DNA from: Thermodesulfobacteriota bacterium
Lineage (GTDB): Bacteria > Desulfobacterota_D > UBA1144 > Nemesobacterales > Nemesobacteraceae
DNA: 64,000 bases
NCBI GenBank assembly: GCA_965263275.1
Contig: OZ253668.1
Location: 1,756,857 to 1,820,856, forward strand
Reading direction: 5' to 3'
Shown here piece by piece: positions 5,321 to 60,710 of the stretch. The notes under the pieces are model-generated. The model was not told where the DNA came from and searched no databases. It saw only the letters and a program-made list of their open reading frames with translations. Each line of letters opens with the position of its first letter. The first letter of the stretch is position 1. The position numbers and the translations under genes were made by a program.

Positions 5321-5641
5321 TATGCATTTACTCCCACGTAATCCTCCACCCTCTCGGGCAGAAGCAGTCTCTGTGTGCGCTCAAGGGTGGGCTTGTATCT
5401 GCGCTGGTTCATTCTGTGTTCCACCTTTGTATCTCCTTTAACAACGGATGATGTAATTATACCTTGAGAAAGGAGGGAATCAATATCTAACTGCCTGAAA
5501 TGCAAAGATAATTGTGCCGCTTCAGGAATCCAGACACGGGAGGACTAAATGATCTCGTAATGCCCTGTTAAGTCCAAGTGTTTCGCCAAACAATATAAGA
5601 TTCAATAATATCTTCATAGGCTCAATTAGTTTATTAGTAAC

Positions 5642-7125: not shown

Positions 7126-7200
7126 GAGCACGTAGCTCAGGGGCAGAGCACTTGCTTGACGTGCAAGGGGTCGCAGGTTCAATTCCTGCCGTGCTCACCA
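7126..7200 (+). tRNA. tRNA-Val (anticodon GAC), CCA encoded
   Basis: Cloverleaf by hand. Acceptor gagcacg/cgtgctc. D-arm gctc…gagc. Anticodon stem cttgc/gcaag with loop ttGACgt. T-arm gcagg-ttcaatt-cctgc. Discriminator a plus cca. Confidence 0.8.
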
Positions 7201-23874: not shown

Positions 23875-24832
23875 CTATTTCAGGTGCTTTTGCAGAAGGT
23901 CAAGTGCATCCGAGATCTCACTCATATCCGGCAAATCGCCATGGACCAGATTAGAGAACACGCCTGTATACACCACGTTCAAAGAGTTGCTCCAAGTTTC
24001 AAAATTAGAAAATAGAGGTGTATTTACTAGTGGTTCTTCAAAGCAATCGGAATGTTCAAATCCCCCTGCTTTTTCATCTTCAATACACCTGTCACACAAC
24101 GACTTAAACTCATTGCTTGCGATAAAATTCTGATATTCGTCAAGCCGTAAGACCAGGCAGATATCATAAAGATGGCGAATACGGTTCGATAGTCTGGCAA
24201 TGGGATCATCGCTGTAACTATCCTTGATAATTCCAAGCATTTTCTCAACCAGCGTACGTTTTTGGGACAGTACCTTAATCGAAAAATTTTCTAGCCCGAA
24301 CCGAGCGATTAAATCAACCCTCTTTTTTCTAATCAGGTGCTCCGCAATAAGAGTTCTTATTTTTCGTATTTCAAATGGTTCGGGGTTGGCAAATGCATTG
24401 ATTTCAATTAGCAGTTCCCGGGGGACCTGCTCAAAACCATCGTTATCAATTCTGCAAGGATATTTGTAGACCGTCCTACGGAATTTTGAACCCTTGGATT
24501 CTCGTTCGTCACCCTTAAGAGAAATGAGGTTCTGGGTAACGATGTTTTCCACATTCTTTAGCAACTTTTTTCTTTGACTGTCTCCTTTTTTACTGCTGCA
24601 AGACACAGCCAAGTCAATATCTTCGGAAAAGCGACCTATTAATCTATTATGCTTTGGACAGAGATGTTCCTCCTTTAAAGACCACACTTTCTCTGTACGG
24701 AGATTCAGATAGAAATTTAAGGGACATTGTTATCCAATAACCTTTTTCGATATAGGCATCCGGTATCCCAGCGGATTCCCCTGTGGTCTTTATCAGTTCA
24801 TTGAAGATTTCTTCGTCTTTGTGCAGATTCAT
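23875..24832 (-). pseudogene. abiEii: AbiEii/AbiGii-family nucleotidyltransferase toxin, disrupted by a 1-nt frameshift
   Basis: N-fragment (24647-24832) ends …VVFKGGTSLSKA*. C-fragment (23875-24687) continues in the -1 frame as …NRLIGRFSEDIDLAV… Together these give the AbiEii hallmark GGT.L.......R.SEDIDL. Inserting one base near 24647-24650 restores SKAYNRLIGRFSEDIDL. Confidence 0.75.
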
Positions 24833-32308: not shown

Positions 32309-33289
32309 ATGAGCCATAGTCATTTAAACGTCCCAACGAAGTACTGGGAGTTGACGAAAGAGGTACCGCCCCCTCCGATAGAGCGGGATATCAAGTCATG
32401 GATCATAGCGAATCCGTCGGATCCGCTTTGGGACATAGACGTGCTGCCGCTGACTTATACGGACAGCAGGTGGTCAGCGTTCATAGTAAGATGTGATGAG
32501 GCGACGAGGACACGTCTGTGCCCGACTCCCCCGTTACAGGTGTGGGACGGAGAGAATGCAGATCTGGTAGAGTTTTGGTATGTTGAGCATGTGAACACGA
32601 TGTTAGGTCCATATCTTGAGTTTGGCGTAACGATCTCGGCGACGTACAGTGACCCAGAGGGCAATGTATGGAAAGCGGGATACTATCCGTATATGTATTT
32701 GACGGGAGACGCGCCGGTGGACGCGGGTCGTGTGCTTGGATTTCCAAAGAAGATGTCGTACATCAGATGTACGGTACACGGTGGAGAGAAAGGCACTGAC
32801 TTTTTTGGGTATGCGATGAGTCGTAACGGTTATCTGATGCATAGCGCAACAGGGCAGTTTGACGACAAGCAGGTAACACCTCCGTATTTCTATGGTAAGA
32901 CAGACTGGGGCAAGTTCAACATGAAGGTAATAACGCGGCCGGACGTATCGAGTTCGGAGTGGCAGTTAACATATCTGCCATCAGCGTTGCCGCCTCCGTT
33001 TGACGCAATGATCCAGGGGCACAGGTTCAAGATCAAGCCTGAGCACACCAGGACAGCAAGTGGAGACGCCATAAACTGGTTTATGCAGGCGACACCGTTT
33101 GACAACATGGGAGCGGAGCTGAAGATCCAGGAGGTAACGGGAATGATATCGTTTGTATTCGATCTCGTAATACCGCCGGCGGTGGTACTCTGGACGGAGA
33201 CGTATGAGAGGCCAGCGAGTTACAGGGGTTATGCCACACCATACAAGTATGGATTGAGGCAGCAGTTCCCGATCAGTCAGGGTTCATAA
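32309..33289 (+). CDS. Acetoacetate decarboxylase (ADC) family protein, paralog 1
   Basis: …YYPYMYLTGDAPVDAGRVLGFPKKMSY… aligns with C. acetobutylicum ADC …YLHMMYLDNEPAIAVGRELSAYPKKLGY…, where K115 is the Schiff-base lysine. Upstream, VEFWYV…GPYLEFGV matches the ADC beta-cone. Confidence 0.75.
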   Translation: MSHSHLNVPTKYWELTKEVPPPPIERDIKSWIIANPSDPLWDIDVLPLTYTDSRWSAFIVRCDEATRTRLCPTPPLQVWDGENADLVEFWYVEHVNTMLGPYLEFGVTISATYSDPEGNVWKAGYYPYMYLTGDAPVDAGRVLGFPKKMSYIRCTVHGGEKGTDFFGYAMSRNGYLMHSATGQFDDKQVTPPYFYGKTDWGKFNMKVITRPDVSSSEWQLTYLPSALPPPFDAMIQGHRFKIKPEHTRTASGDAINWFMQATPFDNMGAELKIQEVTGMISFVFDLVIPPAVVLWTETYERPASYRGYATPYKYGLRQQFPISQGS

Positions 33290-33319
33290 GAAAAGTAAAG
33301 TTAAGGAGGTAAAACCATA

Positions 33320-34291
33320 ATGGGATTACAAGCAAATGAGTACAGTTATCCTTGGTTGGATGAAGGAGAAGTTCCACCATTACCATTGGACAGGGACAGG
33401 ATCCATATCATCAGTCAGGGCGTAGCGGACCCGGTGTTCGACTACGATATCATACCGCTGACGTATACAGACAGCAGGTGGATGGCCTATGTAATAAAGG
33501 CAGACATCAATGCTATGAAAGCGGTGGTACCGGAGCCGATCGAGGTTCAGGATGATGTAATAGAGTTTTGGTACGTAATACACAAGAACACGATGTTAGG
33601 TCCATACATGGAGATGGGCGTAACGTTCTCGGCAACAGTGGATGACGGGAGTGGTCATATATACAGGGCGGGATACTATCCGTACATGTATCTGTCAAAC
33701 GACTCTCCGATATTTGCGGGTAAAGAGCCCTTTGGATTTCCGAAGAAGGCTGCTTACATTGCCGGGTATGAGCATGGTACCAACAACAACTACTTCAATC
33801 ATCTGATGGAGCGCAGAGGTTATATACTGCACACAGCGAACGGGCGTTATTCTGACAGGCCGCTGTCGGCGAGGCCAACATTTTATGGCAAGACCGATTG
33901 GGGACGTATGAACTACAGGATAACAACGAGGCCGGATGTAACGACCAGTATCCACGAAGTAACGTATCTTCCTTCGGATCTTCCTCCGGGATTTGGGACT
34001 GGGCACAGGTTCCAGCTGAATCCTGAGAGTGTAAGGACCGCGGTAACAGAGGATGTACGTTCGTGGTTCCTGTCAGGCACACCGTTTGACTATATGGGCG
34101 GACAGATACCAGCAATGGAGGTAGTAGGGTTGATAAGCTTCACGTTCAACCTGATCATACCGCCGGCGGCGACGATCTGGACAAGGACGGTAGAGAGGAC
34201 GACTGAAGACTTTGGTCATGTGGTCTACTCCACGCCGTTTGTGTACACGATGCGTCACAGGTTCCTGCTGCCACAGTATAGCCAGGGCTAA
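33320..34291 (+). CDS. Acetoacetate decarboxylase (ADC) family protein, paralog 2
   Basis: AMKAVVPEPIEV vs ADC ALRKVVPEPLEI. YYPYMYLSNDSPIFAGKEPFGFPKKAAY vs ADC YLHMMYLDNEPAIAVGRELSAYPKKLGY. About 45% identical to paralog 1 across the full length. Confidence 0.8.
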   Translation: MGLQANEYSYPWLDEGEVPPLPLDRDRIHIISQGVADPVFDYDIIPLTYTDSRWMAYVIKADINAMKAVVPEPIEVQDDVIEFWYVIHKNTMLGPYMEMGVTFSATVDDGSGHIYRAGYYPYMYLSNDSPIFAGKEPFGFPKKAAYIAGYEHGTNNNYFNHLMERRGYILHTANGRYSDRPLSARPTFYGKTDWGRMNYRITTRPDVTTSIHEVTYLPSDLPPGFGTGHRFQLNPESVRTAVTEDVRSWFLSGTPFDYMGGQIPAMEVVGLISFTFNLIIPPAATIWTRTVERTTEDFGHVVYSTPFVYTMRHRFLLPQYSQG

Positions 34292-50706: not shown

Positions 50707-52062
50707 TTACTGGACCGAAATTCTGCTTTGTATGGCGTCTCTTACGGTCTTGTAATCGTTTGGAAGTTCCACCGGAGCGTTTCTCAGCTCAGACGATATC
50801 CCCTCAAGGACTGACTTATGGTAGCCGGCTTTGAACTCCACGAACTTCAGTCCGTGAGCGGTGGAAACGACCACTATTTTTTCCTTCGGGGAAAGAACCT
50901 TTTTCTTAAGAAGTTTCAAAAACACCGCGAGCGCGACTCCGGTATGGGGACAGTTAAAGGTGCCCGTTCTGTCCGCCATTGCCGAGGCGTGGGAGAGTTC
51001 GTCTTCCGATGCCTGTTCAACGACTCCGTCGAATCGCCTGAGAATCGAAATCGCTTTGTTGATGCTTACGGGGTTTCCGATCTGTATGGCGTTTGCGAGG
51101 GTTTTTTTCGCTCTTACCGGGACAAATTCGCTGAAGCCCTTAAGGAAGCTCAGGTAAAGAGGGTTTGCGTTCTGCGCCTGCGCGCAAACTATTCTCGGAA
51201 GTTTTTTTATGAGACCGAGGTCATACATCATCAAAAATCCCTTTCCGAGCGCGGACACGTTGCCGAGGTTGCCGCCCGGAATTATCACCCAGTCCGGAAC
51301 TTCCCAGTTAAACTGCTGGCAAAGTTCTATGCTTATCGTTTTCTGCCCCTCTATGCGCAGGGAGTTAATGGAATTTGCGAGATAGATATTATGCTCGCTC
51401 GTGATTCTCTGGACCATCTCCATGCAGCCGTCAAAATCGGTGTCCAGGGAAAGAACCAGGGACCCGTTCGAGATGGGCTGAATCAGCTGAGCAATGGATA
51501 CCTTGTCTTTGGGAAGAAAAACTATTGAGGGAATGCCTGCTGACGCGCAGTAGGCGGCCAAGGCAGCCGAGGTGTCCCCTGTTGAGGCGCAGGCGACCGC
51601 CGGGATGCTCATATTGTCGCTTATCATCTGGTTTACGGCCGAAACAAGCACGGTCATCCCCAGATCCTTAAAGGATCCCGTGTGGCTGTTGCCGCACATC
51701 TTTATCCAGAGATCCTCAACGCCGACGTGTTTTCCCAGCCTCTCGGCCCAGAAAAGATTCGTGCATCCCTCGTACATTGAAACTATGTTTTCGTTTTCAA
51801 TAGAGGGCAGTACCCACTCCTTTTTCCCCCAGACTCCGCTTCCAAAAGGCCAGGACTGCTTTCTGTATCTGCTGTCGAAAAGCTCTCTCCACTGCTCGGG
51901 CGTTTTTTGCCCGAGAGTTTCCATGTCGTGCTGAACGTCGAGAAGGTTGTTGCACTTCCTGCATCTGTAGATGATCTCATCAAGGGGATAGGTCTCAGAG
52001 CAATTCTCGTCGATGCATCTGAAATGGGCTCGGTATTCACTCATCAAGCTAACAAGGTACAT
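50707..52062 (-). CDS. thrC: Threonine synthase (long form with N-terminal Zn-ribbon)
   Basis: [26 protein letters not shown] (Zn ribbon). PLP lysine region FKDLGMT. 451 aa. Confidence 0.9.
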   Translation of the reverse strand: MYLVSLMSEYRAHFRCIDENCSETYPLDEIIYRCRKCNNLLDVQHDMETLGQKTPEQWRELFDSRYRKQSWPFGSGVWGKKEWVLPSIENENIVSMYEGCTNLFWAERLGKHVGVEDLWIKMCGNSHTGSFKDLGMTVLVSAVNQMISDNMSIPAVACASTGDTSAALAAYCASAGIPSIVFLPKDKVSIAQLIQPISNGSLVLSLDTDFDGCMEMVQRITSEHNIYLANSINSLRIEGQKTISIELCQQFNWEVPDWVIIPGGNLGNVSALGKGFLMMYDLGLIKKLPRIVCAQAQNANPLYLSFLKGFSEFVPVRAKKTLANAIQIGNPVSINKAISILRRFDGVVEQASEDELSHASAMADRTGTFNCPHTGVALAVFLKLLKKKVLSPKEKIVVVSTAHGLKFVEFKAGYHKSVLEGISSELRNAPVELPNDYKTVRDAIQSRISVQ

Positions 52063-52326
52063 TTTGCCTTTTTTTCTGTCAACGCCTTGTAGACCCTACG
52101 CCAAATTTTCCATCGCTTTGAGGTTTAAGGGTTTGTGTTTTTAATTAGCTGTAGCGCTGAGCAAGAAAGAACCTAAATTTTTGGCACTCCCGAGAAAAAA
52201 GGGTGGAGTGAAGCGAAAGCATTTGGTGGATATGTCCACGTGCTGTTGCCGATGGAAACAGATTTCGGGACGCTGTCGCGGCCGTATTCTCGGCACATCG
52301 TCAATCATAAGATTCCCTAAAAAACC

Positions 52327-52356
52327 TTGACTCTGAGCCGATTTTGAGTTTAGAAT
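52327..52356 (+). promoter_or_regulatory. Sigma70-like promoter for A1 (SRCR protein gene)
   Basis: TTGACT (52327-52332), 18-nt spacer, TAGAAT (52351-52356). AAGGAGG RBS before ATG 52446. Confidence 0.45.
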
Positions 52357-52445
52357 AGGAACAAACGGTTGGTTGTTACTTACTGATCATTGCAAGAGCG
52401 GGAAGATCAATCGGCGGGGGTTTGTAACTATTGAAGGAGGTCTTA

Positions 52446-53324
52446 ATGATGAAAGGAGTAAAATGTATTGGAAAGGCAGTTCTGATTATGGCCGTGTTTT
52501 TTCTTTTTGGTTCCGGGAATGTCTCGGCGGCAGAGGAGAATACCGTTCAGACTCTGTGGTCGGCAACTATGACGGTAGGCAAACACTATTCCACTAAGGA
52601 GGGTAGGGATCTCTACGGATATTACGGTGGTAACACCCCAGCCGCTGGCGCTCTCACCAGCGACACTTTCAGTTACAACGGTGATGAATACAAGGTTTAC
52701 GAGATCGATAAGATCGGTAATATCGTAGTGTTGGGTTTTCGGTCTGGTGGTGGTGCTGGTTATGAAATTTTAAAGACGGAATCGATTGAAAAGAACAAAA
52801 CTTTTTATCTGAATATCGGGAATTCCGTGGAACTTGATTTCAGGGACCGGGTCATCCCTACCGAGGAAGACGATGAAGACTATTTTTTGCACGAGAGTGA
52901 GATACGGCGCAACTGGTTAAACCAGAGATATAACTGGAGCGAAGGTCAGCAAGTCAGTGTAAGCATAACCACCAAAGCTCTTGACGGAGGTCTCAGGCTG
53001 CCTCCCGATGGCAATGGAACAAGCGGGGAATTAGGCATATTTGATGACCCCAATAACGATGGTACTGGGCAGTGGGAGAGAATATGCGATGACAATTGGG
53101 GTGATACGGACGCGGAGGTTGCGTGCAGCCAGTTAGGCCTCTCTGGGGGCACTGCGACAATCGGAATACGGAATGCATCCATGACCACCGCAGAAACCTT
53201 CTTGCTGGACGAGGTAATATGCGATGGCACGGAAGACAGGGTAATTGACTGTCCTCATGACGGCCGTGGCGTGCACGATTGCGCTGCGTGGGAAATTGCC
53301 GGGGTTACTTGTACTTCCCCTTAA
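52446..53324 (+). CDS. Secreted protein with C-terminal SRCR (scavenger receptor cysteine-rich) domain, copy A1
   Basis: Signal peptide MMKGVKCIGKAVLIMAVFFLFGSGNVSA. C-terminal …GQWERICDDNWGDTDAEVACSQLGLSGG…ETFLLDEVICDGTEDRVIDCPHDGRGVHDCAAWEIAGVTCT reproduces the SRCR consensus …GxWGTVCDDxW…A.VVCRQLG…CxGxE…L..C.H…H.C.H.EDAGV.C. Confidence 0.75.
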   Translation: MMKGVKCIGKAVLIMAVFFLFGSGNVSAAEENTVQTLWSATMTVGKHYSTKEGRDLYGYYGGNTPAAGALTSDTFSYNGDEYKVYEIDKIGNIVVLGFRSGGGAGYEILKTESIEKNKTFYLNIGNSVELDFRDRVIPTEEDDEDYFLHESEIRRNWLNQRYNWSEGQQVSVSITTKALDGGLRLPPDGNGTSGELGIFDDPNNDGTGQWERICDDNWGDTDAEVACSQLGLSGGTATIGIRNASMTTAETFLLDEVICDGTEDRVIDCPHDGRGVHDCAAWEIAGVTCTSP

Positions 53325-53352
53325 ACCATTTCAATAAAACTTGGGAGTTAAG

Positions 53353-54579
53353 ATGAATATGAACAGATTATTAAGACTGGCGGTATTTCTATGTGTTCTT
53401 GCGGTTGTATTCTCTGATGGACGCATTGCTGTGGCCAGTGACGTTCCCGGGCGTATAACGGCCGGGGAAGTTACGGATGATGAGAGCCTGATGAAAAACT
53501 TCGTTGAATACGCGGCGGGACGTCTTCAGGACTCTGCCAGCTTTGCGGATGCGTTAAATCTGCTATACGATTTCAGGAAGGTCGGGGGAGACTGGAATGA
53601 AGATTCCACGTACCTGATTCTTCTCTCAAGAAATGGGGGAGTGTACCTTCACGGGAGGAACAGGGAGCTTGAAGATCAGGACTGGTCTGATCTTCAGGAC
53701 GCAACGGGGGAAGATGTCGGGCAGAAGTTCCTGCAGGGCGGTTCTGTTGAGTATTACGGAGAAGGAGATCAGAGTTCCAGAGTGAGTTACGCATTTCCGT
53801 TTTCTGCTCCCCATATTCCTTTTGCGAACCCGGATGAACCTAAGTTCGTGCTGGTCGGGGGTTTTGATTACGAGCCTGAGCCCGAAGATTTTGGAGGAGC
53901 GGAAGTTTCTTGCGGGGAGTTTTTTGCTTCTTATGGTTTGCAGCAGGGGCTGTGTCCAACTGTGGGTGCCAGAGATGTGAGCACCCTTGATGACCTGAAG
54001 GTGTTTGTGGATGAGGCAAGGCATTTTTTTACAGCGGCCTTGGTAGCCCCGCAAATTGATCCCGTGCTATTGCGCAGGATATTCAGGCTTGATGGGCCGT
54101 GGAAACATGTCTCCACTTACATTTATATTATGGATGATACGGGCAGGGTGATATTTAACGGTGCGAATAGAGACATTGAGCAGATGGATTTATGGAACAA
54201 CGAGGACAACAACGGGGATAAATTCATTCAGGAACTTATTGCCACTGCGGGGACGGGTGAGACTGTGGAATATAATTGGGAGAATCCGGCTGTGGAAGGA
54301 GACGGTGAAGGCGCTGGTCCTGGAGGCGATTCACCCAAGCTGGGCTACACGATAAGGATCCCTGTTCCGGTTGAGGAAGAGGGCGAGACGAAGAGAAATT
54401 CAAGCCGTGTCTACATTTTTGGTTCGGGAATTTATTTTGGAGAACAGGATGGGCAGTCCAGTGGTGAAGGTTGTGTGATCGCCGGTGCTGAGGATACCAT
54501 TCAAAACGGTTTGTTGAGTTTGTTCTTAATCCTATCTGCGTTGCTTTTGGCAGTTTCATTAAAAAGACGTTCAGTTTGA
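53353..54579 (+). CDS. Secreted protein with two tandem sCache_2-like domains and a C-terminal hydrophobic anchor plus basic tail, copy A2
   Basis: Signal peptide MNMNRLLRLAVFLCVLAVVFS. Two internal repeats (…STYLILLSRNGGVYLHGRNRELE…GGSVEYY… and …STYIYIMDDTGRVIFNGANRDIE…GETVEYNWENP…) fit the single-Cache pattern. Ends …DTIQNGLLSLFLILSALLLAVSLKRRSV. Confidence 0.55.
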   Translation: MNMNRLLRLAVFLCVLAVVFSDGRIAVASDVPGRITAGEVTDDESLMKNFVEYAAGRLQDSASFADALNLLYDFRKVGGDWNEDSTYLILLSRNGGVYLHGRNRELEDQDWSDLQDATGEDVGQKFLQGGSVEYYGEGDQSSRVSYAFPFSAPHIPFANPDEPKFVLVGGFDYEPEPEDFGGAEVSCGEFFASYGLQQGLCPTVGARDVSTLDDLKVFVDEARHFFTAALVAPQIDPVLLRRIFRLDGPWKHVSTYIYIMDDTGRVIFNGANRDIEQMDLWNNEDNNGDKFIQELIATAGTGETVEYNWENPAVEGDGEGAGPGGDSPKLGYTIRIPVPVEEEGETKRNSSRVYIFGSGIYFGEQDGQSSGEGCVIAGAEDTIQNGLLSLFLILSALLLAVSLKRRSV

Positions 54580-54812
54580 AAATAGCTGGTAGTGCTTGAA
54601 TTTGCGAAAGATTTAAAACGGTGCGTCAAGCTAGCTGACATAATATCAGGGTAGCCTGTGAGAGTAACTGCCCTGATATTATGTTGTGCGTCTCTTCATC
54701 CGCGGTCTAGACGGAGTGGCAGTGCTTGCTGTCCAAGCGAGCAGCAAGAAAACTTCGTATCCGTAGCACTGAGTCACTTCTCTCTTTCTTTGGGGCTGTC
54801 TGGACCCCCCCC
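54580..54812 (+). ncRNA. Conserved structured non-coding element (copy 1) downstream of A2, candidate sRNA or structured 3' UTR
   Basis: Collinear with 60137-60362. Contains a long hairpin (cataatatcaggg…ccctgatattatg) and a second hairpin (cttgctg-tccaagcgag-cagcaag). The small ORFs the track calls here change frame between the two copies while the nucleotides stay conserved, which argues for RNA rather than protein. Confidence 0.4.
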
Positions 54813-55151
54813 GATACCCTTTATCAAGCTTGATTTAGCGGAAATTTTAAAACCAAGTTAAGTTGAAATTCACGGGCCACTCGATCGAGAGCTACCTGCC
54901 CCCCCTGCGCCTCTGAGCGCCTACTGGGGACTTGTGCCTCGGTCGAGTGCCGTGATGAATGATGTCCAGTAGGACTTTCTACCATTAATCAAATCAAAAA
55001 ACAATAAAAATTAAAGAATCGGGTGTGGCTGCAATCCCGCTTGATCTACAGACTTACATGGGATATTCGCGGCATTTGCCTTTAACCTCTCCTTCGTCTC
55101 GTTGGCAAGTCCAGGCAGTTATCAGTCGATCTATGTTTCTATAAGTCCTCC

Positions 55152-56381
55152 TTATGACGTTGCAAAGTTCTTCTCAAACAGCACTCCCTTTTCAAGCAGT
55201 GTGCACGCCACGTAAAGAAGACGGTCTCCCACCGAGCGCAAGGCCCTGTAATGACCGTGTCCCCTCCCGCGAAGCGCGTTGTATTTAGCCCTGCTTGCAG
55301 GGTCGCCCTGAATTGCCGTTCGAGCCCAGTGATAAATTGCGTTGACAAGTCTTTTATGCGAGGCTCTTCTTTGCGTAACGCGCTTGCTCTTTCCCGACTG
55401 CCTGGTTACCGGAGCCACGCCGCTTAGGCTGCGAAGCGATTTGTAATCGCGACGCCGAAACAGTTCACAGGCTTCACCGAGCATTGCGGCGAGCACAATC
55501 TTTCCCACCCCGGGAATTGACAGTAGAATCTCGACATCGTCGAATTCCGCTTCCCCTCGGCCGCTGCCGCCGACAGATATGATCCGAGAGTCAATCAGCT
55601 TCTCGGCATCCTTAAGCTGCCTCAGTACTGCTATCATGCGCTCCACAATGCTTTGAACGCGCATAACGCAGCCGCTTGCGGTTGCCGGGAAGATGTTCAT
55701 CTCCTTTGATCTCAGGATCTCCAAAACTCCTTTGGCGTCAATGCGGCGGATACCATGGCGCTTTAACAGTTTTTCAATCGTCCGAGGTCTTGCGCGCCTT
55801 GCGGCCTGCGGGGTGGGCACGCGTTGCCATAACTCGAGGAGCCATGGATGAAAGCGCTCGCCAATCAGTTCATTGAACTGGGGATAATACTTCCACAATT
55901 GCGCGCGCATGCGAGCCGCCAGGCGAGTGCGCTCCCCTACAAGCTCTTCTCTCATGCGGGAGAGTTCCCGAAGTTCTATGATGATCGGTTCCGGCGCCGT
56001 GAGTCTGCGGAAGTGACGTATATCCGTGCCAAGCGCCGAAGCAAGCACATGCGCGTCGCGGCGGTCGTCCTTCGCTCCCGAGGGAGAGAACCGGTCCCTG
56101 AACCGATCCAGCTGCTTGGGATTGATGGAATGGACACAGAAGCCGCGAGCCATAAGGCTTTCCACAACGGGACCGTGAGGCACCTCGATAGCCGCGGCGA
56201 CTTGCTGCGGTCCGGACTCGCAGACATCCACTATCCATTGAACCATCTCGCCGAGGCCTTTTCCCCCGTGGGGGAAAGAACGCTCTCCCAGGATGGAACC
56301 GCTCTGGTCAATAACGCAGACTTGGTGGGATTGGGAACCCCAGTCAATGCCCGCGAGGAATTTATAATTAACGGATTGCAT
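55152..56381 (-). CDS. IS110-family transposase/recombinase (DEDD RuvC-like N-terminus + C-terminal Tnp domain), element 1
   Basis: …FLAGIDWGSQSHQVCVIDQSG… (DEDD_Tnp_IS110 N-terminal domain) and …LLSIPGVGKIVLAAMLGE…APVTRQSGKSK… (Transposase_20 domain). Confidence 0.85.
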   Translation of the reverse strand: MQSVNYKFLAGIDWGSQSHQVCVIDQSGSILGERSFPHGGKGLGEMVQWIVDVCESGPQQVAAAIEVPHGPVVESLMARGFCVHSINPKQLDRFRDRFSPSGAKDDRRDAHVLASALGTDIRHFRRLTAPEPIIIELRELSRMREELVGERTRLAARMRAQLWKYYPQFNELIGERFHPWLLELWQRVPTPQAARRARPRTIEKLLKRHGIRRIDAKGVLEILRSKEMNIFPATASGCVMRVQSIVERMIAVLRQLKDAEKLIDSRIISVGGSGRGEAEFDDVEILLSIPGVGKIVLAAMLGEACELFRRRDYKSLRSLSGVAPVTRQSGKSKRVTQRRASHKRLVNAIYHWARTAIQGDPASRAKYNALRGRGHGHYRALRSVGDRLLYVACTLLEKGVLFEKNFATS

Positions 56382-56684
56382 GATAAGTTAATACCTCCTA
56401 GTCATTAAATCGGGTCGGCCGTGATTACTTCCTATTCCAGTACGGGTGCTCCAGGGCACAGACTTTCTACCGGGAATAAAATCACGGTATTCGGTCGAGG
56501 CGCATGTCCTACCGAGGCACTCTTGGTGCGGGAAGTTACAAGGCAGCTCTCGACCGAATGACCCGTGTTTCTATTTAAACCTTAATTTCGCTGAGAAAAA
56601 AACCGAAGGAATGGTACTGGAAGTTCGTGCCTCTGAGCACCTCCGTATCGGAGCAGACACACACATCACGGCAAACCCGATTTA

Positions 56685-57968
56685 ATGACTAGGAGGTATT
56701 ACTATATCATGAACAATGATAAATCATTATTTTTTGCAGGCGTCGACTGGGGATCCCAATCCCACTACGTCTGCCTCATTGACCAAAACGGTTCCATTCT
56801 CAAGGAAAACTCCTTCAGGCACAGCGGCGAAGGCCTTTGGAATATGGGTGACTGGTTAATTGAAGAGACAGGCTCAATCCCGGAGAATGTCGCCGTAGGA
56901 ATTGAAGTCACTCGCGGTCCCGTCGTGGAAAGCCTCATGGCTCGCGGCTTTGATCTTCACTCCATCAACCCAAAACAACTGGACCGATTCCGCGACAGAT
57001 TCTCCGCCGCCGGAGCGAAGGACGACCGCAGAGATGCCATGGTGCTCGCCTCGGCTCTTCGTACCGACAGACGTCACTTCCGCTCTCTGGAACCCCAGTA
57101 CGAGGATATCACGATCCTGCGCAGCCTCTCGCGCAGAAGAGAGGAACTTGTGTTTGAACGCAATCGCTGGACTAATCGACTGAGCGACCAGTGGTGGACT
57201 TACTATCCCCAGTTCAAAGAAGTGGTGGGCGACGACACTGTCCGCCCCTGGATTATTGAATTATGGAGACTTGCTCAAACACCTGATGCCGCAAGGCGAA
57301 TCAGAGTGTCCTCTGTGCAGAAGATACTCAAGCGCCACAGAATACGACGTATCGACGCGCAGCAAGTGCTTGGGATTATTCGCTCAAAAGAAATAAACCT
57401 CATGCAGGCAACAGTTTCAAGCTGCGTTTGGCGTGTGAAGAGCATTATTGAGTTCCTCGATATCGTCAACAGACAGCTCAAGGAAATCGAGACCCGTATC
57501 AAGGAGATGCTCCATTCAATCATCTCTCGGGAGAAAACTGAAAACGCGGGGACAGGAAAACCAAGCGATGTCGAAATCCTCCTGTCCATGCCGGGAATCG
57601 GCTTTGTCACTGCCGCCACGCTGGTCTCCGAGGCTTATGATCTGATACGACGACGCGACTACAAGGCGCTTCGGTGCGTTGTCGGCACAGCTCCGGTGAC
57701 AAAACAGTCGGGCAAGAGCAAGTATGTCATGCGGCGCCGAACATCGTCTCGCAGACTTCAGACAGCGATCTACCACTGGGCAGGGGTAGCGGTTCTGCAC
57801 GATCCCGTAAGCAAAGCCCGCTACGCCTCGCTACGGGCACGGGGACTGCGCCATTCCAGGTCTCTTCGCACCGTCGGCGACCGTCTTCTCTATGTTGCCT
57901 GCACCCTGCTCAAAAAAGGAGAAATGTTCCGCAAAGACTTCAAGGAACTGCAAAAGGAAGCCGCCTGA
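56685..57968 (+). CDS. IS110-family transposase/recombinase, element 2 (about 55% identical to element 1)
   Basis: …FFAGVDWGSQSHYVCLIDQNG… and …LLSMPGIGFVTAATLVSE…APVTKQSGKSK… Same domain order as element 1 but clearly diverged. Confidence 0.85.
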   Translation: MTRRYYYIMNNDKSLFFAGVDWGSQSHYVCLIDQNGSILKENSFRHSGEGLWNMGDWLIEETGSIPENVAVGIEVTRGPVVESLMARGFDLHSINPKQLDRFRDRFSAAGAKDDRRDAMVLASALRTDRRHFRSLEPQYEDITILRSLSRRREELVFERNRWTNRLSDQWWTYYPQFKEVVGDDTVRPWIIELWRLAQTPDAARRIRVSSVQKILKRHRIRRIDAQQVLGIIRSKEINLMQATVSSCVWRVKSIIEFLDIVNRQLKEIETRIKEMLHSIISREKTENAGTGKPSDVEILLSMPGIGFVTAATLVSEAYDLIRRRDYKALRCVVGTAPVTKQSGKSKYVMRRRTSSRRLQTAIYHWAGVAVLHDPVSKARYASLRARGLRHSRSLRTVGDRLLYVACTLLKKGEMFRKDFKELQKEAA

Positions 57969-58076
57969 TAGCGATTGCCAACAGGCTTCCCAATAGAAAA
58001 AACGAGGAGGCGCCTCAAAAAAACTGAATCCGCTATATATATAAATTTAACACTTGATGAAAGGTAGGAAGTCCCC

Positions 58077-58609
<533 letters not shown>

Positions 58610-58981
58610 TTAAGTAGCCGTAGCGCCCAAGAAAAAACATGTTTGCCACTGCACCCGCTGGGAAAGTTCTGAACGAAGAGACTATAATGGCGCTTACCCG
58701 CAAACTGTTACCGAAGGACCCGGATTTGGGACGCCGTCGCGATCGTATTCTCGCTACATTTTAATCATAGGATCATCCAAGCCAACTGGGCTGAGAAAGT
58801 ATTCGGAGAAGGTAGTTTCTTCGGGGATGAGCTGGGCGAAGATATGTCTCAAGGAAGCTGGATTGGAGGACATCTTGGCCTGTTTCAGGCCGTCTTTGGC
58901 CACGGGGGGATAGCCATTTTGAGATGCTAAGCCGCCTTGCCAGATAATAATTCACGGTATGAGATGGCGTACCATTCAAAT

Positions 58982-59011
58982 TTGACTTTGAGTTGACCTC
59001 CCTTATATAAT
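58982..59011 (+). promoter_or_regulatory. Sigma70-like promoter for B1
   Basis: TTGACT (58982-58987), 18-nt spacer, TATAAT (59006-59011). AGGAGG RBS 8 nt before GTG 59108. Confidence 0.45.
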
Positions 59012-59107
59012 AGAACTAACTAGTCGTTTGCTATTTATCGGTTGTTACGAGGTTTCGGCGGAAAGGGTCAGGCGGCGGGGATTTGTAACTGTTCAGGAGG
59101 TGCTGAT

Positions 59108-59941
59108 GTGAAAGCGGTAAGATGTATTGGAAAGGCAGTTCTGATTATGGTCGTGTTTTTTCTTTCTGGTTCCGGGAATGTCTTAGCGCAAGCTAATTCT
59201 GTACAAACTCTGTGGACGACAACCTTTACTGTAGGAAGTTTTACTGACAATAACGGTATATTTGGCGATGAAGGTACGTTTTACTCTGGATATGACGGTG
59301 CCACGCGTATAGGCAGTATCAGCGATTACAATTTCTCTTATGAAGGTGTTACTTATAAAGTTAAGGCCATTGTGAGAGTCGGCGATAGGGTGAGACTTGA
59401 ATTTTATAATCCAGCTTTTAGAACGGCAGGGAGCCACAAGAACAGAACTTTTTATCTGAATATCGGGGATTCCACATCGCTTGATTTCAGAGATGAGGAT
59501 TCGGATACAGCAACCACATGGCGAGGGGTGCGACGCGACTGGACAGGCCAGACATATGACTGGACTGACGGTCAGGAAATCAGTGTCAGCATAACCACCA
59601 AATATCTTGACGGAAGTCTCAGCTTACCTTCTGATGGAACGAGTGGAAAATTAGGCATATTTGATGACCCCGATAACGACGGTACTGGGCAGTGGGAGAG
59701 AATATGCGATGACGAATGGGATAATACGAACGCGGAGGTTGCGTGCAGCCAGTTAGGCTTCTCTGGGGGCACTGCGACAAGCGAACAGGGTGCATCCCTT
59801 AGCATCGCAGAAACCTTCTTGCTGGACGATGTAGACTGCGATGGTACGGAAGACAGGGTGATTGACTGTGAGCATGCCGGTCGTAACATGCACGATTGCG
59901 CTGCACAGGAAACTGCCGGGGTTATTTGTACTTCCCCTTAA
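59108..59941 (+). CDS. Secreted protein with C-terminal SRCR domain, copy B1 (diverged paralog of A1)
   Basis: GTG start with RBS. Signal peptide VKAVRCIGKAVLIMVVFFLSGSGNVLA. SRCR region …GQWERICDDEWDNTNAEVACSQLGFSGG…ETFLLDDVDCDGTEDRVIDCEHAGRNMHDCAAQETAGVICT. The N-terminal domain is only about 45% identical to A1, whereas the SRCR half is about 85-90% identical at the nucleotide level. Confidence 0.75.
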   Translation: MKAVRCIGKAVLIMVVFFLSGSGNVLAQANSVQTLWTTTFTVGSFTDNNGIFGDEGTFYSGYDGATRIGSISDYNFSYEGVTYKVKAIVRVGDRVRLEFYNPAFRTAGSHKNRTFYLNIGDSTSLDFRDEDSDTATTWRGVRRDWTGQTYDWTDGQEISVSITTKYLDGSLSLPSDGTSGKLGIFDDPDNDGTGQWERICDDEWDNTNAEVACSQLGFSGGTATSEQGASLSIAETFLLDDVDCDGTEDRVIDCEHAGRNMHDCAAQETAGVICTSP

Positions 59942-59969
59942 ACCATTTCAATAAAACTTGGGAGTTAAG

Positions 59970-60136
59970 ATGAATATGAACAGATCATTAAGACTGGTGG
60001 TATTTCTATGTGTTCTTGCGGTTGTATTTTCTGATGGACGCGTTGCTGTGGATACCATTCAAAACGGTTTGTTGAGTTTCTTTTTAACCCTGTCAGTATT
60101 GCTTTTGTCCATATCATTAAAAAGACGTTCAGTTTG
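59970..60136 (+). pseudogene. Internally deleted remnant of the sCache gene (signal peptide fused directly to C-terminal anchor, 55 codons)
   Basis: MNMNRSLRLVVFLCVLAVVFSDGRVAVDTIQNGLLSFFLTLSVLLLSISLKRRSV. The junction gctgtgg|ataccattc corresponds to A2 gctgtgg(53437)… and …gctgagg|ataccattc (about 54492), i.e. a microhomology-mediated deletion. Confidence 0.7.
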
Positions 60137-60362
60137 AAAATAGCTGGTAGTGCTTGAATTTATGCGCAGTGCGCCGAGCTAACTAACATAATATCAGGGT
60201 AGCCTGTGAGAGTAGCTACCCTGATATTATGTTGTACGTCTCTTCATCCGCGGTCTAGACGGAGTGGCAGTGCTTGCTGTCCAGGAGAGCAGCAAGAAAG
60301 CTTCGTTATCCGTAGCACTGAGTCACTTCTCTCTTTCTTTGGGGCTGTCCGGAAGCCCCCCC
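60137..60362 (+). ncRNA. Conserved structured non-coding element (copy 2)
   Basis: Perfect 18-bp hairpin acataatatcagggtagc / gctaccctgatattatgt (60186-60232) and a second hairpin cttgctg…cagcaag. Compensatory differences relative to copy 1 improve the pairing. Confidence 0.4.
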
Positions 60363-60416
60363 AATCCCCACATTCATTGACACCAAGATAGGCTTTCGGT
60401 AATCTGGGAGAGTCGG

Positions 60417-60710
60417 ATGGAACAAAGAGCGCTTATCCTCGTGAAGGGAAGGGTACAGGGAGTTTATTTCAGAGTCTCAGCGGCGCAGACGGCGGCTAAG
60501 CTTTGCATCAGGGGACACGTGGAAAACCTTGCGGACGGTAACGTGAGAATAGTCGCCGAAGGAACGACCGAGAACCTCAAGAAACTGATCGAGTGGTGCG
60601 GAGAGGGCCCGCCCCGCGCGAAAGTGGAATCGGTTGAATTCAATTTGCTGCCCCCGGAGGGAGGATTCATCGGTTTTCGCATAAACAAGACTCAGAGGAG
60701 ATCAGATTGA
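60417..60710 (+). CDS. acyP: Acylphosphatase
   Basis: [19 protein letters not shown]…RGHVENLADGNVRIVAEG…L…GPP.A.V. 97 aa, with the acylphosphatase signatures VxGxVQGVxFR and GxVxNxxDGxV. Confidence 0.9.
   Translation: MEQRALILVKGRVQGVYFRVSAAQTAAKLCIRGHVENLADGNVRIVAEGTTENLKKLIEWCGEGPPRAKVESVEFNLLPPEGGFIGFRINKTQRRSD

What the first reader, a model, noticed from the sequence alone, without database searches (positions are those of the whole stretch)
52446..53324. Bacterial secreted proteins with a bona fide SRCR (scavenger receptor cysteine-rich) domain, present as two diverged paralogs (A1 52446-53324, B1 59108-59941)
The C-terminal ~105 residues of both proteins reproduce the SRCR consensus almost position for position, including the terminal E.AGV.CT, the 6-Cys framework and ETFLLD.V.C.G.E. 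SRCR domains are overwhelmingly metazoan (innate-immune receptors) and are rare in bacteria.

Each protein has a signal peptide and an unassignable ~180-aa N-terminal domain. Between the paralogs that N-terminal domain is far more diverged (about 45% aa identity) than the SRCR half (about 85-90% nt identity). This is consistent with diversifying selection or modular recombination on a ligand-binding N-domain.
Basis: partly seen in the sequence, partly recalled or inferred. Interest (0 to 1): 0.75.

Follow-up and report, generated by a model that had tools for sequence, protein, structure and literature searches.

The report
Bacterial SRCR proteins paired with Cache
An uncultivated, probably sponge-associated bacterium (Dadabacteria-like) encodes secreted proteins with a genuine animal-type SRCR "scavenger receptor" domain, and in every related genome tested this gene sits next to a dedicated Cache-domain partner, a gene pair not found described in the searchable literature that may act in host-microbe contact.

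Summary
A1 (52446-53324) and B1 (59108-59941) are intact secreted proteins. Their C-terminal ~110 aa match Pfam SRCR far above threshold (E 3e-17 and 2e-19), with the six group-A cysteines and the acidic dual cation site of animal SRCRs.

- The N-terminal ~150 aa is not an orphan. It is an unnamed beta-sandwich module with 227 remote relatives, mostly repeated in giant surface proteins. It has no Pfam model and no solved structural relative.
- A1 and B1 are a tandem duplication of an SRCR+Cache two-gene unit. SRCR genes lie beside every member of this Cache subfamily that I tested, across about ten independent loci. These include a sponge metagenome and NCBI "Candidatus Dadabacteria" MAGs, where the SRCR protein is annotated "hypothetical protein".
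- Synonymous divergence is about four times higher in the N-module than in SRCR, and dN/dS is about 0.6-0.75 in both. That indicates mosaic recombination or gene conversion rather than demonstrated diversifying selection.

Most likely function (inferred): a Ca2+-dependent extracellular binding pair used in host or particle interaction. No report of a prokaryotic SRCR turned up in the searchable literature. I rate it a new variant of a known kind, interest about 0.68.

The parts
51710..52062 (-). 5' part of the intact threonine synthase gene thrC (50707-52062). It is the left edge of duplicated unit A.
   Evidence: PALP hit E 2.4e-56; 51710-52009 is 97% identical to 58170-58469.
52327..52356 (+). 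Promoter-like site upstream of A1 (TTGACT-18-TAGAAT).
   Evidence: 10 of 12 matches. This is a consensus match only.
52446..53324 (+). A1, a secreted two-domain protein: signal peptide (52446-52532), N-terminal beta-sandwich module (52533-52985) and group-A SRCR domain (52983-53321).
53341..54579 (+). Cache partner, 412 aa. It has a signal peptide, a dCache_2/sCache_2 domain, an invariant Cys in 'GxC(V/A)(I/V)AGA', a C-terminal TM helix and a KRR tail. It has no cytoplasmic output domain.
   Evidence: Pfam E 2e-17; alignment with homologs from other loci; 16-nt gap after the A1 stop, same strand.
54580..54812 (+). Conserved non-coding tail of unit A. It ends in the poly-C tract where the IS pair inserted.
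   Evidence: 87-93% identical to 60138-60369; junction sequences.
54813..58072 (.). Insertion of two head-to-head IS110-family elements (transposases 55152-56381 on the minus strand and 56685-57968 on the plus strand, 58% aa identical). It is absent from the sister strain L001.
   Evidence: DEDD_Tnp_IS110 and Transposase_20 hits; L001 7554/7557 joins window 54812/58073.
58077..58184 (+). Duplicate of the acylphosphatase promoter and 5' end. It marks the tandem-duplication junction.
   Evidence: 94% identical to 60378-60485.
58163..58555 (-). Truncated thrC 5' fragment (130-aa ORF). It is the left edge of duplicated unit B.
59108..59941 (+). B1, the paralog of A1: signal peptide (59108-59188), N-module (59189-59605) and SRCR domain (59603-59938).
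59958..60137 (+). Remnant of the second Cache gene. An in-frame deletion leaves a 59-aa ORF that joins the signal peptide to the C-terminal TM anchor.
60138..60369 (+). Tail copy of unit B, followed by the intact acylphosphatase gene (60417-60710).

Best explanation
A1 and B1 are functional, Sec-exported proteins of an uncultivated Thermodesulfobacteriota bacterium that is Dadabacteria-like and probably associated with a sponge or other marine invertebrate. Each joins a variable N-terminal beta-sandwich module to a group-A SRCR domain that keeps the acidic dual cation site through which animal SRCRs bind ligands.

The ancestral unit is a two-gene operon: the SRCR protein followed by a dedicated extracytoplasmic Cache protein. 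That partner has a Cys-containing C-terminal anchor and no signalling output.

Proposed mechanism:
1. Both proteins are exported (shown only by sequence features).
2. The Cache protein is held at the cell envelope by its C-terminal anchor or sorting signal (inferred).
3. The SRCR protein, which has no anchor, associates with it (inferred from strict gene linkage).
4. SRCR binds anionic or protein ligands through Ca2+, such as host matrix, host or microbial surfaces, or particles (inferred from conserved site residues).
5. The N-module adds a second, variable specificity (inferred).

In this genome the unit was duplicated at least three times (A1, B1, C1). The extra Cache copies decayed, and the SRCR paralogs diverged as mosaics through recombination or gene conversion. 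The SRCR domain most likely entered this bacterial lineage once from a eukaryote and then diversified.
For: Domain identity:
- Pfam SRCR well above cutoff and PDB sequence matches with all six Cys aligned.
- The cation-site residues defined in DMBT1 SRCR8 (D1019, D1020, E1086; D1020, D1058, D1059, N1081; PMC7043408) map with exact spacing to D215, D216, E283, D255, E256 and D278. D215, D216, D255, D278 and E283 are invariant in the family; position 256 varies only D/E/Q.

Intact and constrained:
- SD and promoter-like sites are present.
- SRCR dN/dS is 0.29 between strains.

Linkage to Cache:
- The SRCR gene is adjacent to a homologous Cache gene in the window, L001, L084, L091/L092, L082, L096, L085, L086, L093/L094, L095, L097 and L100.
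- The link is absent only in the ~30%-identity outgroup.
- Decayed Cache remnants lie next to B1 and C1.
- Cache topology and the invariant Cys tail.

Host and habitat:
- Nearest genome is a Thermodesulfobacteriota MAG.
- Named Cache homologs come from Ca. Dadabacteria, a class of that phylum.
- Synteny with a Dadabacteria MAG on a contig that carries C1.
- L085-L087 come from the Sarcotragus foetidus sponge metagenome.

Evolution:
- Mosaic ancestry: dS 0.77 against 0.20 and a sliding-window mosaic.
- Grouping of the Cache-linked bacterial SRCRs.
- N-module family and fold.
Against: - No experiment or expression data exists. Secretion, anchoring, complex formation, Ca2+ dependence and the ligand are all inferred.
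- The structure model of the SRCR half was low-confidence (pLDDT below 35), so the fold rests on sequence homology.
- The habitat of the window's own sample (ERZ25068833) could not be identified. Only some related loci are demonstrably from a sponge, and one is from a TARA sample.
- The NJ tree has no bootstrap and sparse eukaryote sampling with no sponge sequences, so neither donor nor single origin is established.
- No curated sorting-signal model matches the Cache tail, and no sortase-like gene is in the window.
- A few second-domain SRCRs in L082 lack the CDD motif.
Confidence: 0.55

Rival explanations
1. The protein pair is the same, but its role is not host-directed. It would be an extracellular or periplasmic capture or sensing device for bacterial physiology. 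SRCR would bind polyanions, minerals or particles via Ca2+, which is abundant in seawater, and Cache would bind a small molecule, serving nutrient scavenging or attachment to marine particles.
For: - Cache domains are small-molecule binding modules (Pfam hits).
- SRCR domains bind hydroxyapatite, heparin and other anionic ligands (PMC7043408).
- One locus comes from a TARA sample.
- The cassette sits in unrelated housekeeping contexts with no host-interaction genes nearby.
Against: - No transporter or signalling gene is consistently linked, and the Cache protein has no output domain.
- Several loci are from sponge metagenomes and sponge-type Dadabacteria MAGs.
- The SRCR domain type is otherwise an animal recognition module.
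Confidence: 0.25
2. The pair is a polymorphic bacterial cell-cell or kin-recognition system, analogous to surface receptors with variable domains. The variable N-module would specify partner identity, and the Cys-tagged Cache protein would be the surface anchor.
For: - Strong, mosaic variation of the N-module between paralogs, and 18 non-synonymous against 3 synonymous changes between strains (dN/dS 1.6, small counts).
- The partner has a C-terminal Cys + TM + basic tail.
- Multiple paralogs per genome.
Against: - Many family members (type 2: SRCR-linker-SRCR) lack the N-module altogether yet keep the Cache link.
- B1 is nearly identical between strains (99% nt), which is not what a polymorphic recognition locus predicts.
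- No sorting-signal model matches.
Confidence: 0.1
3. One reading: the N-domain differs between A1 and B1 mainly because of diversifying (positive) selection on a ligand-binding surface after a single duplication.
For: N-module 46% aa identity against 76% in SRCR. Between strains, the A1 N-module has dN/dS 1.6 against 0.29 in SRCR.
Against: - Between the paralogs dN/dS is 0.63 in the N-module and 0.75 in SRCR, so there is no excess of replacement changes.
- dS itself is about 4-fold higher in the N-module (0.77, and ~1.0 in its first half) than in SRCR (0.20). Selection on protein sequence cannot produce that.
- The flanking thrC fragment is 97% identical while the rest of the unit is ~85%.
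- C1 is a mosaic of A1-like and B1-like segments.
- The strain-level dN/dS rests on only 3 synonymous changes.
Confidence: 0.15
4. Artefact: eukaryotic (host) DNA mis-assembled into a bacterial contig, or decaying pseudogenes with no function.
For: SRCR is an animal domain, and the samples are metagenomes that may contain host DNA.
Against: - The same genes lie in the same bacterial synteny in independent assemblies and samples, including closed circular contigs.
- They have bacterial signal peptides, SD sites and intronless ORFs.
- G+C content matches the surroundings.
- Cys and site residues are conserved and dN/dS is below 1.
Confidence: 0.02

Closest known systems
Animal group-A SRCR domains (MARCO, SR-AI, SCARA5, Mac-2 binding protein, LOXL2-4, neurotrypsin)
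   Same: ~105-aa domain with the same six cysteines; the CDD...LDxV...(N/D)C...ExAGV acidic cation-site residues; significant sequence similarity.
   Different: - It is encoded in a bacterium, behind a bacterial signal peptide.
- There is a single domain fused to a bacterial beta-sandwich module, with no collagenous, transmembrane, protease or LOX partner domains.
- It carries a clade-specific 'IFDD-x-(D/N)-x-DG-x-G' insert before the W..ICDD strand. The insert resembles a DxDxDG calcium loop (my reading from memory of that motif) and takes the place of the DMBT1 'VEVLxxxxW' bacteria-binding motif.
Eukaryotic-like proteins of sponge symbionts (ankyrin, LRR, TPR, HEAT, WD40, fibronectin-III and cadherin-type proteins)
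   Same: A domain typical of animals encoded by bacteria from sponge microbiomes, presumed to be exported and to mediate host association (PMC8163846; loci from the S. foetidus metagenome).
   Different: SRCR is not among the eukaryote-like classes surveyed there ('scavenger' has 0 occurrences). It is a disulfide-rich recognition domain, not a solenoid repeat. It comes with an obligatory Cache partner gene.
Cache-domain extracytoplasmic sensors (dCache_2/sCache_2 of chemoreceptors and histidine kinases)
   Same: The partner protein matches both Pfam Cache models above cutoff.
   Different: There is no cytoplasmic HAMP, MCP, kinase or GGDEF output. Instead it has a signal peptide and a C-terminal Cys motif + TM + K/R tail, so it cannot signal in the classical way.
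C-terminal protein-sorting signals with an invariant Cys (MYXO-CTERM type) and PEP-CTERM/GlyGly-CTERM signals
   Same: Tripartite layout at the extreme C-terminus of the Cache partner: short Gly/Cys motif, hydrophobic helix, basic cluster.
   Different: No NCBIfam sorting-signal model matches, and no candidate sorting enzyme was found in the window. The resemblance is by layout only.

Membership tests
SRCR superfamily (Pfam PF00530), group A | Significant match to the family HMM above the curated threshold. | tested here: met
   A1 63.1 bits and B1 70.1 bits against a cutoff of 26.1. Relatives in other loci score 46-115 bits.
SRCR superfamily (Pfam PF00530), group A | Six conserved cysteines in group-A spacing, lacking the extra C1/C4 pair of group B. 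| tested here: met
   C214, C227, C259, C269, C279 and C289 are invariant and aligned to the animal cysteines. Group definitions from PMC10855680.
SRCR superfamily (Pfam PF00530), group A | Complete ~100-110-aa domain including the N-terminal strand. | tested here: met
   The Pfam alignment covers HMM 16-100. phmmer alignments to Mac-2BP (query 180-291), CD6 and CD163 domain 7 (181-290) cover the N-terminal strand, with a clade-specific insert.
SRCR superfamily (Pfam PF00530), group A | SRCR alpha/beta fold in three dimensions. | tested here: inconclusive
   The only model that included this half had pLDDT below 35 (6-sequence alignment).
SRCR superfamily (Pfam PF00530), group A | Acidic dual cation-binding site used for ligand binding. 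| tested here: met
   D215/D216/E283 and D216/D255/E256/D278 correspond by exact spacing to the DMBT1 SRCR8 site residues. This is sequence only; metal and ligand binding were not tested.
SRCR superfamily (Pfam PF00530), group A | Three intradomain disulfides and Ca2+-dependent ligand binding. | not testable with these tools
   Needs protein chemistry.
Cache-domain sensor proteins (partner gene 53341-54579) | Match to the dCache_2/sCache_2 HMMs above threshold. | tested here: met
   63.8 and 62 bits against cutoffs of 25 and 26.5.
Cache-domain sensor proteins (partner gene 53341-54579) | Cytoplasmic signalling output domain after a transmembrane helix. | tested here: not met
   The protein ends 4-10 residues after its C-terminal TM helix, in all aligned homologs except L084, whose tail is lengthened by an overlapping IS110-like fragment. 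No other Pfam or NCBIfam domain was found.
Eukaryotic-like proteins of sponge symbionts | Domain predominantly eukaryotic, encoded in genomes of sponge-associated bacteria. | tested here: met
   Named SRCR hits are all metazoan. L085-L087 are from the S. foetidus metagenome. Dadabacteria MAG loci. The habitat of the window's own sample is unresolved.
Eukaryotic-like proteins of sponge symbionts | Acts on the host, for example by modulating phagocytosis or adhesion. | not testable with these tools
   Requires experiments.
MYXO-CTERM / PEP-CTERM-type C-terminal sorting signals (Cache partner tail) | Match to a curated sorting-signal HMM. | tested here: not met
   No relevant NCBIfam hit for four homologous tails at E up to 10.
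MYXO-CTERM / PEP-CTERM-type C-terminal sorting signals (Cache partner tail) | Signature motif + TM helix + basic cluster at the extreme C-terminus. | tested here: met
   G-x-C-(V/A)-(I/V)-(A/S)-G, then ~10 residues, then a TM helix and K/R. The Cys is invariant.
MYXO-CTERM / PEP-CTERM-type C-terminal sorting signals (Cache partner tail) | Cognate sorting enzyme encoded in the genome. | not tested
   None is in the 64-kb window. The rest of the genome was not available.

The most novel reading that the evidence does not exclude
Dadabacteria-type symbionts captured an animal (possibly sponge) SRCR pattern-recognition domain. They built a lineage-specific two-protein surface system around it: a secreted SRCR protein plus a Cys-anchored, output-less Cache protein. 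Multiple recombining paralog cassettes sit in a ~1.7-1.9-Mb genome. The bacterium would use the host's own recognition module to bind host matrix or to act as a decoy against host SRCR receptors. That would be a new class of symbiosis factor, and it includes a new beta-sandwich domain family.
Probability: 0.3. Interest if true: 0.85.

Novelty: new variant of a known kind. Interest (0 to 1): 0.68.

Why it matters
SRCR domains are a hallmark of animal innate immunity. They are hugely expanded in sponges, where they are thought to help tell symbionts from food bacteria. If sponge-associated bacteria export proteins with the same domain, with its ligand-binding site intact, then mimicry or competition at the host recognition interface becomes directly testable.

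The strict pairing with an output-less Cache protein defines a new two-gene module. It also suggests an unexpected, non-signalling role for a Cache domain.

The N-terminal module is a sizeable domain family (227 hits) with no Pfam model and no structural relative. Such families are useful targets for annotation and structure work.

Public annotation calls these proteins "hypothetical", so the family is currently invisible to comparative studies of symbiont "eukaryote-like" proteins.

Tried and rejected
- AlphaFold2 on full-length A1 with the 6-sequence family alignment gave pLDDT 41, with the SRCR half below 35.
- The afdb50 fold library was unavailable.
- Peptide-pattern scans for the SRCR protein found nothing in 185,579 reference genomes or in the JGI metagenomes. 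This reflects the narrow patterns used: Cache-baited searches later found many SRCR loci, including NCBI MAGs.
- NCBIfam gave no hit for A1 or B1 or for the Cache C-terminal tails. The PDB has no sequence relative of the Cache partner.
- Rfam found only tRNA-Val, so there is no known riboswitch or sRNA near the genes.
- Literature look-ups of sample accessions found nothing.
- Lipoprotein reading rejected: there is no lipobox Cys at the signal-peptide cleavage region.
- Eukaryotic contamination rejected on synteny across assemblies, including closed circles.
- The ORF at 5757-6956, suspected to be a third IS110 copy, is an HTH protein.
- Composition shows no foreign-DNA signature at the locus.
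Full report

Yes. ORFs at 52446-53324 (A1, 292 aa) and 59108-59941 (B1, 277 aa) are present on the + strand. A1 has a GGAGG Shine-Dalgarno 5 nt before ATG 52446 and a TTGACT-18-TAGAAT promoter-like site at 52327-52356. B1 has the same GGAGG, but a 1-nt deletion turns A1's ATGATG into ATG-TG, so translation must start at GTG 59108. The same start is used in a sister strain.

Pfam's SRCR model (PF00530) hits both proteins far above its curated cutoff of 26.1 bits. A1 scores 63.1 bits (E 3.2e-17) and B1 scores 70.1 bits (E 2.2e-19). A sequence search of all PDB chains returns only SRCR proteins: CD163, PIT54, CD5L, LOXL2, DMBT1, Mac-2BP, SCARA5, CD6, neurotrypsin, MARCO and SR-A. Single-domain E-values go down to 4e-11, and the alignments run from residue ~180 to 291.

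The domain has exactly six cysteines (C214, C227, C259, C269, C279, C289). All are invariant in the family and aligned with the animal cysteines. That is the group-A pattern as defined in PMC10855680.

The N-domain is 46% aa identical, and the SRCR half is 85% nt and 76% aa identical.

**2. What else is there?**

*(a) The locus is a tandem segmental duplication.* Unit A runs from 51710 to 54819. It holds the thrC 5' end, A1, a Cache-domain gene at 53341-54579 and a 240-bp tail. Unit B runs from 58170 to 60369. The junction is a fragment of the acylphosphatase 5' end (58077-58184) abutting a truncated thrC (58163-58555).

In unit B the Cache gene survives only as a 59-codon in-frame deletion. 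It joins the signal peptide to the C-terminal membrane anchor (59958-60137).

Two head-to-head IS110-family elements (54813-58072) interrupt the junction. They are absent from a 97-98% identical sister-strain contig, L001, which is otherwise collinear. They inserted into a poly-C tract.

*(b) The N-terminal domain is not an orphan.* An exhaustive HMMER search of 1.84 billion representatives with the N-domain alignment found 227 proteins at E<=1e-3. Most are 1,500-7,600 aa long with 2-13 copies of the module. Pfam has no model for those stretches; the partner domains are fn3, SWM_repeat and Big_5.

The module is ~130-150 aa. It opens with 'LWSATLTVG..GY..GSL.D..F.Y.G..Y.V' and closes with 'W....WS.G(D/Q).(I/V).V.(L/I)T'. 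With a 51-sequence alignment AlphaFold2 gives a confident all-beta model (pLDDT 84, pTM 0.81).

*(c) SRCR genes are strictly linked to one Cache subfamily.* The Cache protein next to A1 has a signal peptide, a dCache_2/sCache_2 domain, an invariant Cys in 'G.C(V/A)(I/V)AG', a C-terminal TM helix and a short basic tail. It has no cytoplasmic output.

Homologs at 39-73% identity lie directly beside SRCR genes in every locus I could inspect:
- L084, a TARA scaffold;
- L091/L092;
- L082 and its intact counterpart L096;
- L085 and L086 from the Sarcotragus foetidus sponge metagenome;
- L093/L094, from NCBI MAG GCA_026709745.1, named Candidatus Dadabacteria;
- two closed circular contigs of 1.76 and 1.90 Mb;
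- L100.

A Cache outgroup at ~30% identity has no SRCR neighbour.

The subfamily has ~95 clusters at E<1e-80. So bacterial SRCR proteins are far more numerous than the four full-length clusters of the first search.

Architectures fall into three types:
- signal + N-module + SRCR (the window's type);
- signal + SRCR + linker + SRCR;
- signal + N-module + SRCR + linker + SRCR.

*(d) The window's species carries more copies.* A third paralog, C1, lies near mraZ-ftsI-murEF/murJ on the window's own 386-kb source contig. Decayed Cache fragments follow it.

A 1.66-Mb contig with the identical C1 also carries a GHMP-kinase/SRCR(439)/Cache/UvrD/SRCR(395) locus. That locus is syntenic with the Dadabacteria MAG.

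So there are at least five SRCR genes in a small genome. Every type-1 copy descends from an SRCR+Cache unit in which the redundant Cache copies were lost.

**3. Who is the host?**

The window is ordinary bacterial chromosome, with thrS, gcvP, mfd, nuoL, sufBD and a delta-proteobacterial long Prc peptidase. SufB is 96% identical to a 'Thermodesulfobacteriota bacterium' MAG. NCBI places Candidatus Dadabacteria as a class in that phylum.

Together with the synteny above, the host is most likely a Dadabacterium or a close relative (inference).

Dadabacteria are recurrent sponge symbionts: Robbins et al. recovered 22 MAGs (PMC8163846). The sample tag ROBB21-1_SAMN13943198 on L093 suggests that study; this is my inference from the tag. 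The habitat of the window's own sample could not be established.

**4. How did the paralogs diverge?**

Nei-Gojobori estimates for A1 against B1:

| Region | dS | dN | dN/dS |
|---|---|---|---|
| N-module | 0.77 (~1.0 in its first half) | 0.48 | 0.63 |
| SRCR | 0.20 | 0.15 | 0.75 |
| Signal peptide | 0.17 | 0.125 | 0.75 |

The N-module's excess divergence is thus as much synonymous as non-synonymous. Positive selection cannot produce that pattern.

Flank identities are also uneven. The thrC fragment is 97% identical, while the rest of the unit is ~85%. C1 resembles B1 through most of the N-module. It matches A1 in the acidic insert, and it is 100% identical to A1 over the last 30 SRCR columns.

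The best reading is mosaic evolution by recombination or gene conversion among cassettes.

Between strains the A1 N-module shows 18 non-synonymous against 3 synonymous changes (dN/dS 1.6), against 0.29 for SRCR. That hints at relaxed or diversifying pressure, but the counts are too small to conclude.

**5. How does it probably work?**

Shown by sequence:
- export signals on both proteins;
- an SRCR domain whose ligand-binding residues are intact.

In DMBT1 SRCR8, site 2 is D1019/D1020/E1086 and site 3 is D1020/D1058/D1059/N1081. D1019A or D1020A abolishes all ligand binding, and the sites are conserved in ligand-binding SRCRs but lost in non-binding ones (PMC7043408). With identical spacing these residues map to D215/D216/E283 and D216/D255/E256/D278 in A1. 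D215, D216, D255, D278 and E283 are invariant across the family, and position 256 varies only D/E/Q.

Inferred:
- The SRCR protein binds anionic or protein ligands through Ca2+.
- The Cache protein is tethered to the envelope by its Cys-containing C-terminal signal and holds or cooperates with the anchor-less SRCR protein.
- The N-module contributes a second, variable specificity.

Sponges deploy expanded SRCR receptor families that respond to microbes (papers listed). The attractive hypothesis is therefore that the bacterial proteins bind host matrix or compete with host SRCR receptors.

A non-host role remains a serious rival, for example capture of polyanionic substrates or particles in Ca2+-rich seawater. 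A kin-recognition role is less likely, because many family members lack the variable N-module.

**6. Comparison with what is known**

The domain passes every sequence-level membership test for group-A SRCR. Only the 3-D fold test was inconclusive.

The Cache partner is a member of the Cache fold families but fails the defining 'sensor with output' criterion.

The C-terminal tail has the layout of Cys-type sorting signals but matches no curated model.

Cache-linked bacterial SRCRs group together in a neighbour-joining tree, apart from animal sequences. They share an insert, 'IFDD-x-(D/N)-x-DG-x-G', that no animal sequence in the set has. The tree has no bootstrap and sparse sampling. One SRCR without a Cache neighbour (L083) falls elsewhere. 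This is compatible with one acquisition followed by diversification, but it does not identify a donor.

**7. Novelty**

Five full-text searches found no report of a prokaryotic SRCR domain. The main sponge-MAG survey of eukaryote-like proteins does not mention it. NCBI names the proteins 'hypothetical protein'.

From my own knowledge, domain databases do list scattered bacterial SRCR entries. The bare presence of SRCR in bacteria is therefore not categorically new.

What appears new:
- the family and its strict SRCR+Cache cassette;
- the three architectures;
- the lineage and habitat;
- the unnamed N-module family.

**8. Verdict**

- It is a new variant of a known kind, with interest 0.68.

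Noticed in passing
window 59958-60137 (+): The second Cache gene is reduced to a clean in-frame deletion ORF of 59 aa. The signal peptide is fused to the last 28 aa (TM anchor + KRRSV), and ~353 codons are lost, including the invariant Cys. The sister strain L001 is in the same state, so the deletion is older than the strain split.
   Followed up: yes
window 54813-58072; also L084 2195-2377 and L088 14334-15593: Two diverged IS110-family elements (58% aa identity) sit head-to-head in a poly-C tract at the duplication junction and are absent from L001. IS110-type genes or fragments also lie next to SRCR-Cache cassettes in two other loci, which may reflect a preferred target or a role in cassette mobility.
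   Followed up: partly
window 58077-58555: A chimeric junction: the acylphosphatase 5' end is fused to a truncated thrC 5' fragment, giving ORFs 58116-58394 (+) and 58163-58555 (-). The thrC fragment is 97% identical to the functional gene, while the rest of the duplicated unit is ~85%. That suggests recent gene conversion of this segment.
   Followed up: partly
L088 8001-8891 (window's source contig, outside the window) and L100: A third type-1 paralog (C1) with decayed Cache fragments lies beside the mraZ-ftsI-mur/murJ cluster. A further SRCR(439)-Cache-UvrD-SRCR(395) locus is on a 1.66-Mb contig of the same or a very close species. That makes at least 5 SRCR genes in a genome of roughly 1.7-1.9 Mb.
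   Followed up: yes
   Followed up: partly
A1 aa 199-208 (window ~53040-53069); B1 aa ~185-194: There is a clade-specific insert, 'FDDP(N/D)NDGTG', of DxDxDG type and possibly an extra calcium loop. It sits between the second strand and 'QWERICDD'. It is present in Cache-linked bacterial SRCRs and absent from all animal SRCRs in the alignment.
   Followed up: partly
Cache partner C-terminus, window ~54460-54576: An invariant 'G.C(V/A)(I/V)AG' motif + TM helix + K/R tail is conserved at 39-73% overall identity across loci. It is laid out like a Cys-type C-terminal sorting signal but matches no curated model. It may be an undescribed sorting tag.
   Followed up: partly
window 32309-34291 (+): Two tandem paralogous acetoacetate-decarboxylase-like (ADC family) genes, ~73% nt identical over a 190-bp stretch.
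   Followed up: no
window 23875-24687 (-): An AbiEii-type nucleotidyltransferase toxin (type IV toxin-antitoxin or abortive infection) lies among housekeeping genes.
   Followed up: no
window 5334-5447 and 6745-7043: Short stretches are 72-88% identical to DNA in the unrelated loci L082 (near an IS110-like fragment) and L087. The overlapping ORF 5757-6956 is an HTH_28/29 protein, possibly a different transposase, next to tRNA-Val (7126-7200).
   Followed up: partly
L083 1730-7492: Another metagenome contig carries SRCR-domain genes together with Big_9, SWM_repeat and Calx-beta proteins but no Cache gene. Its SRCR falls outside the Cache-linked group in the NJ tree, so it may be an independent bacterial SRCR lineage.
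   Followed up: partly
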